64,000 nt of DNA from NCBI RefSeq assembly GCF_009914755.1, contig NC_060929.1. The stretch is one strand, 5' to 3'. Below the pieces are notes generated by a model that saw only the letters and a list, made by a program, of their open reading frames with translations, was not told the DNA's origin and made no database searches. Source of the DNA: the human T2T-CHM13v2.0 reference genome, Homo sapiens. Positions within the stretch are counted from its first letter, which is position 1; every line of letters starts with the position of its first letter. Both the position numbers and the translations under genes were made by a program. Shown here piece after piece: positions 1 to 9,119 of the stretch.

Positions 1-2090
<2,090 letters not shown>

Positions 2091-2666
2091 TTTTTTAAAA
2101 AAAGAAGCATACATGATAAAAGAAAGAAAAGACTTTATAATAGTTGGGAATTTAGGGTACATTTTCCCCTTCTGTTTTGTTTTACTACAATTTGTTTTCA
2201 GGCACTTCTGAATTTGGCAACATTTCCATGATATTACAAACACGCAAGCTGGTTCGAAATAACTATTTCCTATCATTACTTCATATTTTCATAACTTTAG
2301 AGCACTGAGTAAAGGATGTAAAGTGGGGCTTGAAGATATGATTTTTGGGGAATTTCCCAGTCTTGGCTTTGAACATTTAGTTTCTTTCCAAGTTTTCAAT
2401 CTGATAGATCAGAAGAGATATAAGTAGCTGAAAAGGAATTAGTAATGTAAAAATAAAAAAGTGGTAAATAAAAAAGTCTGAAAAATCAGACAAAAATGCT
2501 TGAAGACGCTATTTGCAAAACTGTCCCTGGTGTATTAATCTGTGATTTCTTACCCAAAGTAAGATTTTTCTTTGCTGTTATTTTACTATCATTTATTGGA
2601 GTCTTGAAGGGCCTAAAATGTATACATTATTCCTTCTAACAGCAGCATCCCCTTCTAATTTGTGAG

Positions 2667-3092
2667 TGTGTTGGCCAGGCTTTAATTAGAGAGGAAGAAC
2701 CAGTGTTTTTCATATATATACAAATTTGTTAAAGGAAATGGCTTACAAGATTGTGGGTGCTGGCTAAGCAAGTCCAGAATCAGGAAGGTCATGGGCACAG
2801 ACCACAACTATTGTCTGTGGGCAGCCAGGAGGGAAGAGAATGAGCAGAATGGAACTCCGCAGGCACAAGTACAGCAGATGCCACTGCCCATGGATGGAAT
2901 TTCTTTTCTTTTTCAGGGAAGCTTCAGCTTTTAAGGCCTTTTTAGACTTCTGCTTTTAAAGCTTTTCAACTGATTGAATTGGGCTCACCCAGATCTTTCA
3001 GGATACTCTTAATATCCATCACATCTGCAAAATACCTTCACAGCAGCACCTAGCTTAAATAACTAGAGACTGTCACTGAGCCAAGTTGACAT

Positions 3093-3135
<43 letters not shown>

Positions 3136-3140
3136 ATTAC
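2667..3140. mobile_element. MLT2-like (ERVL) LTR remnant ending in a (CA)n microsatellite at ~3095-3132
   Basis: Resembles MLT2 ends (aaggaaatggcttac...; acatctgcaaaataccttcacagcagcacctag...ccaagttgaca); family assigned from memory. Confidence 0.5.
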
Positions 3141-3844
3141 AGTGGGTTTACCAGTAAATTTCTTCACCAGTTTCCCATAACTGGGCATTTGGTTTACATT
3201 CTTGTTGTTGTTGCTGTTGTGTTTATAGACTTATTTCACATTATACTTACAGAAGCTTCTGTGGGGATTTTTTAGTTTATGGATAAGGACATCAGGACAA
3301 TCAGTTACAGTAAACTGCCTAAGCTGTTCTCTTATGCTGTGTACCCTTAAGAATAAAAGAAATTTTGTTCTTTTTCTGAATCGTTGTCACAGATGGGATG
3401 TGCTCTGTGGAAGCTTAGGAACATCTAAGCTACTGTAATGTACTCTTGCTTAAGTCATTTAAAGATGGACAGAGGTGCTGAGAACTAAGTAAATATGACA
3501 ATAAGAAGCGGGAATGGTAGGGCCTTAGGTGCCCACCTGCAGACTAGAGTGCTCCGTAGGGCCAGGCTGTGCCCCGAGCACATCTGGGGTGTATGGCCGG
3601 TGTCTGATACACATCTCAGAACACAGAGTGGAACAGAAGAGAATCAAAAAGCTGCTTCACCTTCAGCAACAATACATGCCAGTGTTGCTTTTCCATAGGA
3701 ATAAAAAGTGATGAATCTAAAATTACATGATATTTTGCTGTAAATAGCAGCTATTTTTATTATCTGCTAATAATAGAATGAAGATAAAATACATTTAACT
3801 TTTGCATTAAAAAAAATGTCCCTGGTGCACTTATCAACATATGA

Positions 3845-4054
<210 letters not shown>

Positions 4055-5964
4055 TAGAGATGGGGTTTTGGCAGGTTGCCCAGGCTGGGAAATATTTATT
4101 TTTATTTATTGGTTTCACTAACTCTCTATCCAGTTGCTTTTGACCACATCATCTGCCAACAACGGGGCTTAACTTGTGTTCTGGGATGCTCTTATTATGG
4201 GGTTGAGGAGAGGAGAGACTTTGATGCTACCTTGGGCCTTTCCATCTGTAATTCAACTCCCCACCTCACCCTTCAATGCAGTCAGAAGGCCCCCTCAGAC
4301 TTACGGGGCTCCTGGGAGCTGTAGGATCCGTAGAGCCCCTTGCCACACACGCTGGGTCCCGGGCCCCTCAGGAGGGTCAGGCCCTGGGCAGGACATGGTG
4401 AGAGTGAGCAGACAGCAGGCCCTGTGGAGGAAAGGGTGGACTCAGGCCAAATGCCTAGCGGGGATGGGGTGACAGATACTCTCCTGCCCTCACCTGCCTT
4501 CACCTGCGGTGGCCTGCAAGTACAGCTCTGAGGCAGCTTTTGAGTCAGACACCTCCACTTCAGTGGCATCTTCTACCACCCTGGAGGAAGCAGAGGCTGA
4601 GCTCAGCTCCGAAGCACCAGGGTTCTGTCCAGACCCCCAGAACCTCCATGTGGGGAGCCCTTGGAGGTCCCCATAGCCTATAACCTCCCTAAACATTTCT
4701 CATCCTCATGATTTTATTTTCCCTCCTGTGAACAGGGTAGTTGAGATCACTCCCATTTTCAGATGGAGAAACTGAAGTCCTGCTCAGTGAGATGCTCAAA
4801 ATCACCCAGTGTGACAATGACTGAGTCAGGACATGGGGCTGGGGAATAGAGTTGAGGTGGTGTAAGTTGAAGAGTTGTAAGTGGGGTGAGGGGAGTGAGA
4901 GGGATGGGCACATAAGATTAAGGAAGAGGGTGGGAGGGGATCCTGAGAGCAGCCCCTGACCCTGTAAGCATGACCCCAAGCTCAGAGCTTTCTTCCCCTG
5001 GGATGGCAGTGGGTGGAGACCCCCAAAAGCTCGGCTTCAGGGAGGCAGCCATGCCTTAAGACAAGCACCCTCAGACTCCACTGGGCCCTGAACACTCACA
5101 AGCCCAGAGGGGACACGTCCAGCACCGACAGGTTCTCCACCCCTGGAGAGAGCAGGTCCTGGGTCCTTCCACTGGGGCTGAACTGGGGTCACACAAGCAC
5201 ACTTGTTACAAACTGAACCTTTCCCTACTTTCAGCTCACATGATCCTCCTGGGGTCCAAACATGGCACCATGAATTCAGCCTTTTTGCAGTCAGAGGAGA
5301 GGAGACCTCAGAGAGGCACGCCCATGCCAGTGAGCAGTAGAGTGAGACTGGACACACACTCTCTGGCTCCCCACAAACCTCGGGCTCCTTCTGCAACATT
5401 GCCCTGGCCCTGGTTCCCAGGTCCCACTCTCTCCCCTCCCTCAAGGGTCTCACCTGCACCAGGCTAAGAGTGCTAAGCACAGGATCAGAGCAGCTGAGGG
5501 GCAGAGCTTCTTCAAACAGCATCTGCAGCAGCTAAAGTGGAGAAGCGTTCAATGAGGATTAAGAAAGCATGAATCTGTCCTTCAGCATTTCCTGAGCATG
5601 AAGTCTGAGTCATGCCCCATACTACTGGGGACATGGTATCCAGGAGAGAAATAGCACCAGTCTTCTTCTTCACAGCAAGCCAGAAAGTGAGCAGACATCC
5701 TCAGTGGGATCTGCTGTTTGCTGCACAGGGATCCACGACAAGTTCTGAGGCAGCTATTTTGGTTTGGGGGCATTTTGACGAAGCCCCCACAATAAAGCTT
5801 CCAAGCTTATAATTAGTATTCACCATGAACTGTGAAAATCAGATCTCCCTGGATATTTGATCTTTTCATGCCACCCCTCTCTAACCCTCACCCTATCAGC
5901 CCATCTTCCTTTATTTTATTTTTTAATTAAAAAAAAAATTTTTTGTTTTGCCTTTTTTTTTTTT

Positions 5965-7177
5965 GGTATACTTTTGGCTTTATTTCCAGCTTTTAAAAAA
6001 AATTTTATTATTATTACACTTTAAGTTTTAGGGTACATGTGCACAATGTGCAGGTTAGTTACATATGTATACATGTGCCATGCTGGTGTGCTGCACCCAT
6101 TAACTCGTCATTTAGCATTAGGTATATCTCCCAGTGCTATCCCTCCCCCCTCCCCCCACCCCACAACAGTCCCCAGAGTGTGATGTTCCCCTTCCTGTGT
6201 CCATGTGATCTCATTGTTCAATTCCCACCTATGAGTGAGAATATGCGGTGTTTGGTTTTTTGTCCTTGCGATAGTTTACTGAGAATGATGATTTCCAATT
6301 TCATCCATGTCCCTACAAAGGACATGAACTCATCATTTTTTATGGCTGCATAGTATTCCATGGTGTATATGTGCCACATTTTCTTAATCCAGTCTATCAT
6401 TGTTGGACATTTGGGTTGGTTCCAAGTCTTTGCTATTGTGAATAGAGCCGCAATAAACATACGTGTGCATGTGTCTTTATAGCAGCATGATTTATAGTCC
6501 TTTGGGTATATACCCAGTAATGGGATGGATGGGTCAAATGGTATTTCTAGTTCTAGATCCCTGAGGAATCGCCCCACTGACTTCCACAATGGTCGAACTA
6601 GTTTACAGTCCCACCAACAGTGTAAAAGTGTTCCTATTTCTCCACATCCTCTCCAGCACCTTGAGCTGTGGTGAGCTCCACCCAGTTCCAGCTTCCCTGC
6701 TACTTTGTTTACCTAAGCAAGCCTGGGCAATGGCGGGCGCCCCTCCCCCAGCCTCGCTGCCGCCTTGCAGTTTGATCTCAGACTGCTGTGCTAGCAATCA
6801 GCGAGACTCCGTGGGCATAGGACCCTCCGAGCCAGGTGCGGGATGTAATCTTCTGGTGCCCCGTTTTTTAAGCCCGTCAGAAAAGCGCAGTATTGGAGCG
6901 GGAGTGACCCGATTTTCCAGGTGCCGTGTGTCACCCCTTTCTTTGACTAGGAAAGGGAACTCCCTGACCCCTTGCGCTTCCCGAGTGAGGCAATGCCTCG
7001 CCCTGCTTTGGCTCACGCACGGTGTGCTGCACCCACTGTCCTGCGCCCACTGTCTGACACTCCCTAGTGAGATGAACCCGGTACCTCAGATGGAAATGCA
7101 GAAATCACCCGTCTTCTGCGTCGCTCACGCTGGGAGCTGTAGACCTGAGCTGTTCGTATTCGGCCATCTTGACTCCC
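5965..7177 (-). mobile_element. L1PA element with large internal deletion (5'UTR fused to ORF2 end/3'UTR) and short 3' transduction
   Basis: 7177-6661 is L1 5'UTR (caagatggccgaata...cacagctcaag); 6660-6003 is the ORF2 C-terminus and 3'UTR (ORF 6218-6589, CCYKDTCTRMFIAALF); apparent TSD gcc(t)10 at 5950 and 7185. Confidence 0.9.
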
Positions 7178-7187
7178 GAAAAACGCC

Positions 7188-7514
<327 letters not shown>

Positions 7515-9119
7515 TAAATTGACCTTGGCAAAACATCTTGCGTGGACCAACAGGATGCTTGCTGTAGGAGCCCCAGTGAGGGCTGATGTGGGGAGGGAAG
7601 ATTCTCAGAAGTCTCCGGGGAAGGTAACCCCTGAGCTGCATGAGGCCTGCGCCCTGGTGGCTCCTCTGGGACTCACCTGAGGCACAAGTCGGGGTGCCTC
7701 TGTTTCCCTCCCCCGGAGCAACAGGGCCACACTGTACCCTCGGCCCAGAGAGCCCAGTGTGGATTGGACACGTGCCAGCAGCTCCTGCTCTGCCTCCTGC
7801 AGGGACACACAGGCACAGTCCACTGACTCAGGTGCCCTGAGCAAAGGAGCTCTGGAGGCAGCTGGCACTCCAGGATCCAGGGGCCTGAGGGCTCCCACCC
7901 TCCTCTCATCACCCTCCCAGACCTCCCTACCTGAGCAGCATCAGGGCCCAGGACTGTCAAAGGTGAAGTTTTGTTCCTGTGGGCAGGGCTGGGGTCAACC
8001 ATGATATTCCCATCTTCCCCTGCACTCCCCGCCCCACTCCCCTCCCCCCCACCCCCCACCCCAACACACACACAACGCCCATCCACCTGAGTCTCTAGAG
8101 TCCCAAAATGAAGCAAACAGAGGTTTGTGGGCCCCACCAGGTGTGTGGGGCTACAGCTGTCCTCAGGGCCTGAGAAAGGTAGACTGCATATCAGCTCTCA
8201 TGAGGAAAACTGGCTCTGGGATTCCTGAGTTCTGCCCTCAAACTTTGCCTCAGTTTTCCAACCTAAGGTGGCCTAACCCTCCCCCTCTTCCAAGAGGCTG
8301 TCCTGGACTGCATTCCTTCGGAGTATAAATGGGGAGGGCATCTTACCTGAACCCCTCCCCGACTCCACTTCTACCACCACGGTCAGCATGGCATGTGGGT
8401 TGGGAGAGACCATGAGGGCCCCTCAAGGAGGCTGAGTTGCCTGGGCCAAACCAGCCCCTGCGCTCACCACCTCTCCACAGTCCATGCCCTCTATGCCTCT
8501 CAGCTTCCCCTCAATAATTCATGAATCTCATCTGAGGGCTAGGGAGGGGTGGATCTGGACCTCGTAACCTACTAAGGGAAGTGACATTCCCTTCTCTTGT
8601 GAGAGAACACTGCATAAGTTTCTTTTATTTTTTTCCTTTTATGAAAACTTTCAAACATGTATAACACTGGAGAGAATAGTATAATGAACCTCCAGGTACC
8701 CAGCTTCAGAAATTACCAAATTCTGGCCAGTCTTACTTCTTTTGTTCTCCTCCCATCCCCAGCGGATTATTTTGAAGCAAATCTCAGACATCCCAGTATT
8801 TTATCCATAACTAGTTCAGTATACCACAGTTAATTTTAGAACGTTTCCATCACTTCATAAGGAAATTTGGTTCCCTTTAGCTATTGCCTCCCTAACCCAA
8901 GCCCACTGCACCCTCCAACCCTAAGCAACCACTCTTCTATTTTCTGCCTTTACAGATTAGCCAATTCTGGACATTTCATATAAATAGAATTATACACTGT
9001 GTGGCCTTTTGTGTCTGTTTTTTTCCATTTAGCATTATATTTTCAGTGTTCATCTACGTTGTAGCATGTCTGAGTACTTCTTCCCTTTCTACTGTGGATA
9101 ATGTTTCATAATAGAGTTC

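What the first reader, a model, noticed from the sequence alone, without database searches (positions are those of the whole stretch)
7931..8485. Candidate inactivating lesions sit in the first two exons of the kinesin-like gene
Seen: the 46-nt exon reads EQNFTFD in one frame and VLGPDAAQ in another, separated by a single A. Restoring 2 nt gives a kinesin-like FTFD-x-VLGPDAAQ in phase with the next exon. The candidate first exon (ATG 8485, donor GTAAGA at 8346) has an in-frame TGA at 8423-8425 and ends in phase 1. Inference: a recent unitary pseudogenisation, because the five downstream exons have no lesions. A truncated product from an internal Met (5522) is also possible.
Basis: partly seen in the sequence, partly recalled or inferred. 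Interest (0 to 1): 0.7.

Follow-up and report, generated by a model that had tools for sequence, protein, structure and literature searches.

The report
Known dead kinesin-like gene, human chr5
This is the transcribed human remnant of a kinesin-like gene (mouse E230025N22Rik) that other placental mammals appear to keep intact; it is already catalogued as a unitary pseudogene, so the finding is real but not new.

Summary
The sequence facts are right. The 46-nt exon (7931-7976, minus strand) reads EQNFTFD, one stray A, then VLGPDAAQ, in phase with exon 7677-7796. ATG 8485, TGA 8423-8425 and the phase-1 donor are all there.

Five Old World monkey protein models read EQSFTFDRVLGPDAAQ (48 nt), so the human 2-nt loss is a real frameshift.
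- The phase-1 end is explained by a missed, open 83-nt exon (8087-8169).
- The TGA lies upstream of Met 8413, where all six monkey models that include exon 1 start.

Exons E4-E8 are clean. Further exons lie outside the window (to about -16,520) and carry a 1-nt deletion, a TAG, a TGA and a probable lost donor.

The gene is the orthologue of mouse E230025N22Rik: a kinesin motor fold with a dead P-loop (RGRETEAPR in all 24 aligned placentals that cover it) plus a coiled coil.

It is already listed as a human unitary pseudogene by Zhang et al. 2010 and by GENCODE (ENSG00000283602, Mudge et al. 2019). RefSeq's 270-aa "protein" starts out of frame and regains the frame through a transposon-derived exon.

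"Recent" is not shown.

The parts
8347..8485 (-). Coding part of exon 1. ATG 8485 is the start used by lemur, bovid, whale, rodent and mole models. ATG 8413 is the start of all six monkey models that include exon 1. The exon ends in phase 1 with donor gtaaga.
   Evidence: tblastn of mouse-lemur P0052 aligns from 8485; macaque P0005 and P0009 align from 8413.
8423..8425 (-). In-frame TGA in the ancestral N-terminal extension. Lemurs have Q or R at this position.
   Evidence: P0052 ...AAQPPQGAL versus human ...ATQPP*GAL. P0006 has PPRGAL.
8087..8169 (-). Exon 2 (83 nt, phase 1 to 0), encoding (G)PEDSCSPTHLVGPTNLCLLHFGTLETQ.
   Evidence: acceptor tctcag|GC, donor CAG|gtggat. Present in macaque, baboon, douc langur, lemur and other models.
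7931..7976 (-). Exon 3, 46 nt in human and 48 nt (16 codons, E-Q-x-x-T-F-D-R-V-L-G-x-x-A-x-Q) in orthologues. It carries the frameshift.
7955..7955 (-). Single A left of the Arg codon between FTFD and VLGPDAAQ (net loss of 2 nt).
   Evidence: frames. FDRV is present in all 21 of the 25 aligned orthologues that include this exon in full.
7677..7796 (-). Exon 4, 40 codons. It covers the position of the kinesin P-loop, which reads RGRETEAPR. It has no lesion.
   Evidence: one human-specific change in 40.
7085..7226 (-). RefSeq-only 142-nt exon made of transposon sequence: an Alu 3' end with its acceptor (7188-7226) and a high-copy repeat (7085 to about 7176). It is not part of the ancestral gene. 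It shifts RefSeq's out-of-frame ORF back into the ancestral frame.
   Evidence: frame arithmetic. (7188-7482 covered by at least 5 other copies in the window). (3820 first-look candidates genome-wide; all 39 scored non-self copies are 93-95% identical).
5454..5531 (-). Exon 5 (LLQMLFEE...LSLVQ), containing Met 5522. No lesion.
   Evidence: Ten orthologue models start at this Met.
5100..5182 (-). Exon 6 (FSPSGRTQDLLSPGVENLSVLDVSPLG). No lesion.
4494..4580 (-). Exon 7 (VVEDATEVEVSDSKAASELYLQATAGEG). No lesion.
4305..4421 (-). Exon 8 (ACCLLTLTM...ALRILQLPGA), covering the positions of switch I and switch II. No lesion. The next exon lies outside the window at about -10,993.

Best explanation
LOC112267855 is the transcribed human unitary pseudogene of the gene known in mouse as E230025N22Rik.

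The ancestral gene has about 16 coding exons on the minus strand, running from window 8485 to about -16,520, immediately downstream of CD14. It encodes an N-terminal kinesin motor fold whose nucleotide-binding motifs were already lost before placentals diverged (P-loop position RGRETEAPR, switch II position LQLPGA). This is followed by a long coiled coil.

In human the reading frame is broken at several places:
- a 2-nt loss in the 48-nt exon 3;
- outside the window, a 1-nt deletion and a TAG in exon 13;
- a TGA in exon 16;
- a missing GT donor after exon 15;
- 11 codons that could not be found after exon 11.

The TGA in exon 1 is probably older, because monkey models start at the next Met. 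The 'phase 1' problem is an annotation gap (exon 2).

Shown here: the human sequence, the orthologue proteins, and the single human locus. Inferred: the lesions arose after the split from Old World monkeys, the RNA is now non-coding, and the ancestral protein acts as a non-motor scaffold or microtubule binder. RefSeq's 270-aa protein is the longest leftover ORF, not a conserved product.
For: Frames and lesions in the window.

Orthologues:
- 127 hits to exon 4, 159 to exon 10 and 176 to exon 9, with 120 listed each time.
- Every named row is a placental mammal 'uncharacterized protein' of about 390-690 aa.
- UniRef names two of them 'Riken cDNA E230025N22 gene'.

Monkey models: macaque, baboon and douc langur models read through every place where human is broken. 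They have FDRVLG, RCGLHQKNPLRHPKEQ and VFRAWQ.

One locus only: all 9 matches of macaque P0009 in the human genome lie at C5:141095482-141119805.

Synteny: a Scotinomys model fuses CD14 to this protein.

Kinesin ancestry:
- Pfam PF00225 is sub-threshold in 4 of 7 orthologues.
- hhalign against four human motor domains gives E 2.7e-4 over 175 columns, running from FTFD to the DLAGSE position.
- 45 of the 46 listed Foldseek rows are kinesin motors.
- 10 of 21 more distant relatives pass the PF00225 cut-off.

Print:
- Zhang et al. 2010 Table S2 lists chr5-:139929821-139951871 as the human unitary pseudogene of RIKEN cDNA E230025N22.
- Mudge et al. [quoted passage not shown]
- By my arithmetic, with one constant offset its five PhyloCSF regions fall on exons E4-E8.
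Against: - Human single exons give no Pfam hit even at E<=10, and the genome-wide six-frame PF00225 scan did not hit this locus.
- The orthologue profile against PDB sequences gives only E 0.2 for a kinesin.
- The hhalign probability is only 41%.
- The AlphaFold model is poor (mean pLDDT 43), so the fold matches have TM-scores of about 0.3.
- Amino-acid changes on the human lineage (14) are not more numerous than on the Old World monkey lineage (18) over 508 comparable positions. There is therefore no sign of long neutral drift in human.
- E4-E8 are still clean.
- The monkey proteins are computational models with many isoforms, and some colobine models start out of frame.
- The GENCODE curators wrote 'primates' as the point of pseudogenisation. 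That may mean they saw lesions in other primates.
- No DNA of any non-human primate could be read here.
Confidence: 0.85

Rival explanations
1. The locus still makes a shortened protein containing only the kinesin-like fold. It would start either at Met 8413 with exon 3 skipped (exon 2 joins exon 4 in frame) or at the internal Met 5522. It would end in the read-through tail after exon 9 (...LDPQGGQGESVEFFGKL).
For: - Skipping exon 3 keeps the frame.
- Exon-3-less models exist in Saimiri, Propithecus, Talpa, two cats and orca.
- Ten orthologue models start at MLFEE.
- E4-E9 are open in human.
- A marmot model ends in a similar read-through tail...GVGFFGKL.
- There is no excess of human-lineage replacements.
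- The RNA is expressed in blood (passage in PMC10946588).
Against: - RefSeq's human transcript skips exon 2, keeps exon 3 and includes the transposon exon, so the observed splicing does not give this ORF (hub table).
- Such a product would lack the whole coiled-coil half, which is as well conserved as the head.
- No translation evidence was available.
- Tail similarity just past a donor site is expected for splice-region conservation.
Confidence: 0.08
2. RefSeq is right: the 270-aa protein (ATG 7941) is a genuine, new, primate-specific protein.
For: The ORF exists and is identical in two human assemblies (P0165, 2 contigs). Exon junctions are presumably RNA-supported.
Against: - Its first 43 codons read exon 4 in a frame that no orthologue uses.
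- The next 47 codons come from an Alu tail plus a high-copy repeat.
- Only the last 179 residues are in the conserved frame.
- Pfam finds nothing in it.
- It forms a cluster of one, with no ape counterpart among the listed rows.
- GENCODE calls the locus a unitary pseudogene.
Confidence: 0.03
3. The lesions are polymorphic or assembly-specific, and many people carry an intact gene.
For: Only one assembly (T2T-CHM13) was read base by base here.
Against: Two independent catalogues, built on hg18 and on GRCh38, called the same locus disabled. At least five separate lesions would all have to segregate together.
Confidence: 0.03

Closest known systems
GENCODE unitary pseudogene ENSG00000283602 (Mudge et al. 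2019, Genome Res 29:2073, supplementary file 5) and the entry 'RIKEN cDNA E230025N22 gene' in Table S2 of Zhang et al. 2010 (Genome Biol 11:R26)
   Same: Same locus and strand. With one constant offset, the five PhyloCSF regions of the GENCODE row fall on exons E4-E8 (my arithmetic). Zhang's span of 22,051 bp equals the distance from the start of E5 to the stop of E16 (22,053 bp here). Both call it a unitary pseudogene of mouse E230025N22Rik. [quoted passage not shown]
   Different: Neither source, in what I read (one table row each), mentions the 2-nt loss in exon 3, exon 2, the kinesin ancestry, or the make-up of RefSeq's coding model. GENCODE gives 'primates' as the point of pseudogenisation. 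The monkey and lemur protein models seen here are open.
Mouse E230025N22Rik and its placental orthologues ('uncharacterized protein LOC...')
   Same: Same exon order and frames and 70-98% identity per exon. Same neighbour: a rodent model is fused to CD14.
   Different: Those genes are open over about 450-690 codons. The human copy is broken in at least five places. No function is described: of six papers holding the name I read passages in one, which reports dN/dS>1 in hares (PMC6065068), and saw only the search listing for the other five.
Kinesin motor domain proteins (Pfam PF00225), for example KIFC1, KIFC2, KIF3B and KIF4B in the same genome
   Same: Colinear motifs: FxFDxV...Q, GY-hydrophobic strand, LVPQLLQxLFEE, LSLVQ...DLL, LxVxD..G..VE...EV.V, hydrophobic strand, LRILQLPGA. 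The order of secondary-structure elements also matches, and Foldseek hits are almost all kinesins. An exon boundary right after the conserved Q, followed by a roughly 117-120-nt exon (model positions 56/57-95), is also seen in four other human kinesin loci; their gene names are recalled.
   Different: No Walker A motif, and no SSRSH or DLAGSE motif in any placental member. The loop after the P-loop position is about 15 residues shorter than in KIFC1. Placental members stay below Pfam's cut-off. Which kinesin family it branched from was not resolved.
Catalytically inactive kinesin-like proteins such as KIF26A/B or Costal2/KIF7-type scaffolds (recalled, not tested)
   Same: A kinesin fold kept under selection without ATPase motifs, followed by a coiled coil. 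This suggests a binding or scaffold role rather than a motor role.
   Different: No sequence relationship to those families was tested or seen. This is an analogy of mechanism only.

Membership tests
Unitary pseudogene | An orthologue with an open frame exists at the same genomic position in other species | tested here: met
   Open models of 390-690 aa in many placental species. A CD14 fusion model in a rodent shows the same neighbourhood. These are predicted proteins only; no DNA of other species was read.
Unitary pseudogene | Frame-disrupting lesions relative to the orthologous coding sequence | tested here: met
   2-nt loss in exon 3. A 1-nt deletion at about -14,752 and TAG at -14,788..-14,790. 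TGA at -16,366..-16,368. No GT after ...CATGTGCTG at -16,278.
Unitary pseudogene | No functional copy elsewhere in the same genome | tested here: met
   Macaque P0009 against the whole human genome gave 9 matches from 19 scored candidates, all at C5:141095482-141119805.
Unitary pseudogene | Lesions fixed in the species rather than polymorphic | not testable with these tools
   No population data were available. Indirect support comes from hg18- and GRCh38-based catalogues that also call the locus disabled.
Kinesin motor domain (Pfam PF00225) | Score above Pfam's gathering cut-off (29.3 bits) | tested here: not met
   Human exons: 0 of 7 pieces hit, and no hit at the locus in the genome scan. 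Placental orthologues: 14.1-19.1 bits in 4 of 7 and nothing in 3. More distant relatives of the family: 10 of 21 above the cut-off (31-98 bits), 4 below it, 7 with none.
Kinesin motor domain (Pfam PF00225) | Walker A / P-loop GxxxxGK[ST] (motif recalled) | tested here: not met
   RGRETEAPR or close variants in all 24 of 25 aligned placentals that cover it, and in human. Some distant relatives keep GTYASGKS or GSQGSGKD.
Kinesin motor domain (Pfam PF00225) | Switch I SSRSH and switch II DLAGSE (motifs recalled) | tested here: not met
   The aligned positions read ...GEGRACS/C... and LRILQLPGA.
Kinesin motor domain (Pfam PF00225) | Kinesin fold | tested here: inconclusive
   45 of 46 listed Foldseek rows are kinesin motors (E 1.6e-6 to 7.5e-5). 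However, the model has mean pLDDT 43, and TM-scores are about 0.15-0.33.

The most novel reading that the evidence does not exclude
The human locus is not fully dead. An exon-3-skipped or Met-5522 isoform could still give a roughly 180-270-residue 'head-only' protein with the kinesin-like fold. It would end in the read-through tail that a marmot model also carries. In that case hominoids lost only the coiled-coil half of a vertebrate-wide, catalytically dead kinesin relative that nobody has studied.
Probability: 0.07. Interest if true: 0.5.

Novelty: already known. Interest (0 to 1): 0.18.

Why it matters
It matters little as a discovery, because the loss of this gene in human has been in print since 2010 and in GENCODE since about 2018.

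Three practical points remain:
1. RefSeq labels the locus protein_coding on the strength of an ORF that begins out of frame and passes through a transposon-derived exon. This analysis supports GENCODE's pseudogene call.
2. The ancestral gene is longer than either human model. Exons 1 and 2 lie upstream of GENCODE's model, and exons 10-16 lie beyond RefSeq's.
3. The family itself is uncharacterised. It is a kinesin fold that lost its ATPase motifs before placentals diverged yet stayed conserved. It is a candidate for study in mouse.

Tried and rejected
- Pfam on single human exon translations gave nothing (one search failed because one piece was too short).
- phmmer of exon 4 against PDB sequences gave nothing.
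- phmmer of the spliced conceptual reading (X at the break) against five human kinesin ORFs gave only 6.4 bits to KIFC1.
- A search for more kinesin-like exons in window 1-4305 by eye over all minus-strand ORFs found none. The rest of the gene lies outside the window.
- The 11 codons RTEAMRLPEPQ of macaque were looked for between exons 11 and 12 and not found. The best candidates were Alu sequence, or a weak match at -12,979 with an in-frame TAG.
- Pfam on two ORFs of the repeat at 6218-7085 gave nothing. Its identity as an L1 element therefore rests on copy number and on recall.
- Dating the loss from replacement counts was indecisive: 14 human-lineage against 18 monkey-lineage changes.
- The supplement of PMC7555810 held no mention of the gene.
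- Considered and rejected: a chance resemblance to kinesin. Transitive Pfam hits and colinear hhalign and Foldseek results speak against it.
- Considered and rejected: a segmental duplicate of KIFC1 or KIFC2. Identity is far too low and there is only one locus.

Full report
**1. The observation**

Read on the minus strand, the exon at 7976..7931 is 46 nt long, between ...cccacag and gtaggg. Frame 0 gives EQNFTFD and then hits TGA. One base later, after the A at 7955, the frame gives VLGPDAAQ. That frame joins exon 7796..7677 in phase 0: EAEQELLARVQSTLGSLGRGYSVALLLRGRETEAPRLVPQ.

ATG 8485 opens MDCGEVVSAGAGLAQATQPP, followed by TGA at 8425-8423. The exon ends TCAG|gtaaga, in phase 1. Met 5522 is the fourth codon of exon 5531..5454. 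All stated coordinates are correct.

RefSeq's coding model is a different thing.
- It starts at ATG 7941 in a third frame and reads exon 7796..7677 out of frame.
- It returns to the conserved frame only because a 142-nt exon (7226..7085) is included.
- The stored human protein P0165 (270 aa) is exactly this reading.

**2. What the 142-nt exon is**

- Its 5' part, including the acceptor, lies in an Alu. Window 7188-7482 is covered by at least five other copies within the window, from 63 blastn rows including the self match.
- Its 3' part lies in a high-copy repeat. Window 6850-7187 gave 3820 first-look candidates in the human genome. Forty were scored, and all 39 non-self copies are 93-95% identical, beginning at query positions 5-16.
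- From memory the repeat looks like the start of an L1 5' UTR. Pfam did not confirm that.
- No orthologue protein contains this exon.

**3. Orthologues**

Three searches of the large protein library were run.
- Exon 4 (40 aa) found 127 proteins at E<=1, 120 listed.
- Exon 10, taken from outside the window, found 159 at E<=1e-10, 120 listed.
- Exon 9 with its read-through tail found 176 at E<=1e-8, 120 listed.

All named rows are 'uncharacterized protein LOC...' of placental mammals, including primates, rodents, bats, carnivores, ungulates, whales, insectivores, xenarthrans and afrotherians. UniRef names two of them 'Riken cDNA E230025N22 gene'.

The only hominoid protein in any list is the human RefSeq model. 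No chimpanzee, gorilla, orangutan or gibbon protein appears. Because the library is clustered at 90% identity and only 120 rows are shown, this is weak evidence.

A Scotinomys model fuses CD14 to this protein. That fits the position of the human locus, just downstream of CD14 on the same strand.

The macaque protein matches only this one place in the human genome: 9 matches from 19 scored candidates.

**4.

(a) The 46-nt exon.
- Five of five Old World monkey models that cover the small exon read EQSFTFDRVLGPDAAQ. These are Macaca mulatta, M. fascicularis, M. nemestrina, Papio anubis and Pygathrix nigripes.
- FDRV is present in all 21 of the 25 aligned placentals that include the exon in full.
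- Human has therefore lost two bases of the Arg codon. This is a true frameshift.

(b) The phase-1 end of exon 1.
- Orthologues have one more exon between exon 1 and this exon. Its human counterpart is 8169..8087: 83 nt, tctcag|GC...CAG|gtggat, open, encoding (G)PEDSCSPTHLVGPTNLCLLHFGTLETQ.
- It takes phase 1 to phase 0.
- The 'phase 1' end of exon 1 is thus normal.

(c) The TGA at 8423-8425.
- Lemur, bovid, whale, rodent and mole models start at the equivalent of ATG 8485 and have Q or R where human has TGA.
- All six anthropoid models with an N-terminus start at MVSPN/MVSRN, which is human ATG 8413. These are three macaque models, baboon, douc langur and squirrel monkey.
- The simplest reading is that the stop is old and the next Met took over. 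This is inferred from predicted proteins, not from DNA.

**5. The rest of the gene**

Macaque and lemur proteins map to further human exons outside the window, from about -10,993 to -16,521. This is beyond the 3' end of RefSeq's gene at -11,917.

| Exon | State in human |
|---|---|
| E9, E10, E12, E14 | Open |
| E13 | 1-nt deletion at about -14,752 (AGRMATLRRG, then LHQKNPLRHPKE in the next frame); ends in TAG where monkeys have Q |
| E15 | Followed by cccatc instead of a GT donor |
| E16 | VF-TGA-AWQ, where every orthologue has VFRAWQ |
| After E11 | Eleven codons present in monkeys (RTEAMRLPEPQ) were not found |

The gene as a whole carries at least five disabling changes, so the argument 'recent, because only the first exons are hit' does not hold.

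**6. Dating**

- Over 508 positions where the outgroup consensus is clear, there are 14 human-lineage and 18 monkey-lineage replacements. There is no excess in human, which argues against very long neutral drift.
- The number of independent lesions argues against a very young loss.
- Zhang et al. 2010 do not list the gene in their Table S3, which dates eight losses placed after the human-chimpanzee split.
- The GENCODE row says 'primates'.
- My reading is that the loss came after the split from Old World monkeys and is probably shared by apes. Without ape DNA this stays open.

**7. Is it kinesin-like?**

Evidence against or weak:
- The human exons alone give no Pfam hit.
- The profile of 25 orthologues finds a kinesin in PDB sequences only at E 0.2.
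- The AlphaFold model is poor, with mean pLDDT 43.

Evidence for:
- PF00225 appears below its cut-off in 4 of 7 orthologues, at 14-19 bits.
- hhalign against four human motor domains gives E 2.7e-4 (probability 41%) over 175 colinear columns.
- 45 of the 46 listed Foldseek rows are kinesin motors.
- A profile of the head region finds 53 relatives at E<=0.001 among 1.84 billion representatives. Of the 21 I scanned, 10 pass the PF00225 cut-off at 31-98 bits.
- Some of these distant relatives keep a Walker-A-like GTYASGKS.

The family is therefore kinesin-derived. In all 24 of the 25 aligned placentals that cover it, the P-loop position reads RGRETEAPR or a close variant, and the switch II position reads LQLPGA or a close variant. 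The ATPase was dead long before the human gene broke. Despite this, the protein stayed 70-98% identical per exon, which points to a non-motor role for the fold. That role is an inference.

**8. Prior knowledge**

- Zhang et al. [quoted passage not shown] The span is 22,051 bp. The distance from the start of E5 to the stop of E16 is 22,053 bp here.
- Mudge et al. 2019 (PMC6886504; I read passages and one supplementary row) list chr5:140569962-140594570(-), ENSG00000283602. [quoted passage not shown]
- In that paper, supplementary files 1 and 8 were not searched.
- Papers naming LOC112267855: one, a table row on transcript usage in blood.
- Papers naming E230025N22Rik: six. I read passages in one (hares, dN/dS>1) and saw only the listing for the others.
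- I found no paper describing the kinesin ancestry. The search for 'kinesin' + 'unitary pseudogene' + 'human lineage' gave one paper, and its only mention of kinesin is a reference on Kif25.

**9. Verdict**

Of the three proposed lesions, one is real, one is probably old and bypassed, and one is an annotation gap. More lesions lie outside the window. RefSeq's protein_coding label is not supported.

Noticed in passing
window 7085-7226 (and 5902-7187): RefSeq's coding model depends on an exon built from an Alu tail plus the 5' end of a high-copy repeat. From recall the repeat looks like an internally deleted L1 lying in the intron. The RefSeq 'enhancer' 6357-7306 overlaps it.
   Followed up: partly
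alignment A1; proteins P0210, P0207, P0218: The whole placental family has a dead P-loop (RGRETEAPR). More distant relatives keep Walker-A-like GTYASGKS or GSQGSGKD and share the C-terminal RYRKLLQ..AIQDA..LAAQ motif. This looks like a vertebrate-wide kinesin-derived family with no described function.
   Followed up: partly
outside the window, about -10,993 to -16,521 (L011): Seven more ancestral exons lie beyond the 3' end of RefSeq's LOC112267855 (-11,917), close to SLC35A4. The roughly 15-kb intron before them holds HAUS1P1 and a snoRNA-like gene (hub table).
   Followed up: yes
P0179 (Scotinomys), P0036 (rabbit): Annotation oddities in other species. One rodent model fuses CD14 to this gene. 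The rabbit orthologue is named 'plectin'. Several colobine and seal models start out of frame in exon 5.
   Followed up: no
L011, about -11,127 to -11,161; P0064: The read-through tail after exon 9 (GGQGESVEFFGKL-stop) resembles the end of a marmot model (DGWGKGVGFFGKL). This may be a conserved short isoform, or only splice-region conservation.
   Followed up: no
PMC6065068: E230025N22Rik is one of two genes with dN/dS above 1 between hare species in an introgression study.
   Followed up: no
human genome: An exon of about 114-120 nt covering Pfam kinesin positions 56/57-95 recurs in at least four human kinesin loci (on C20, C16, C15 and C8). This matches the boundaries of exon 4 here and suggests an old shared intron position.
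   Followed up: no
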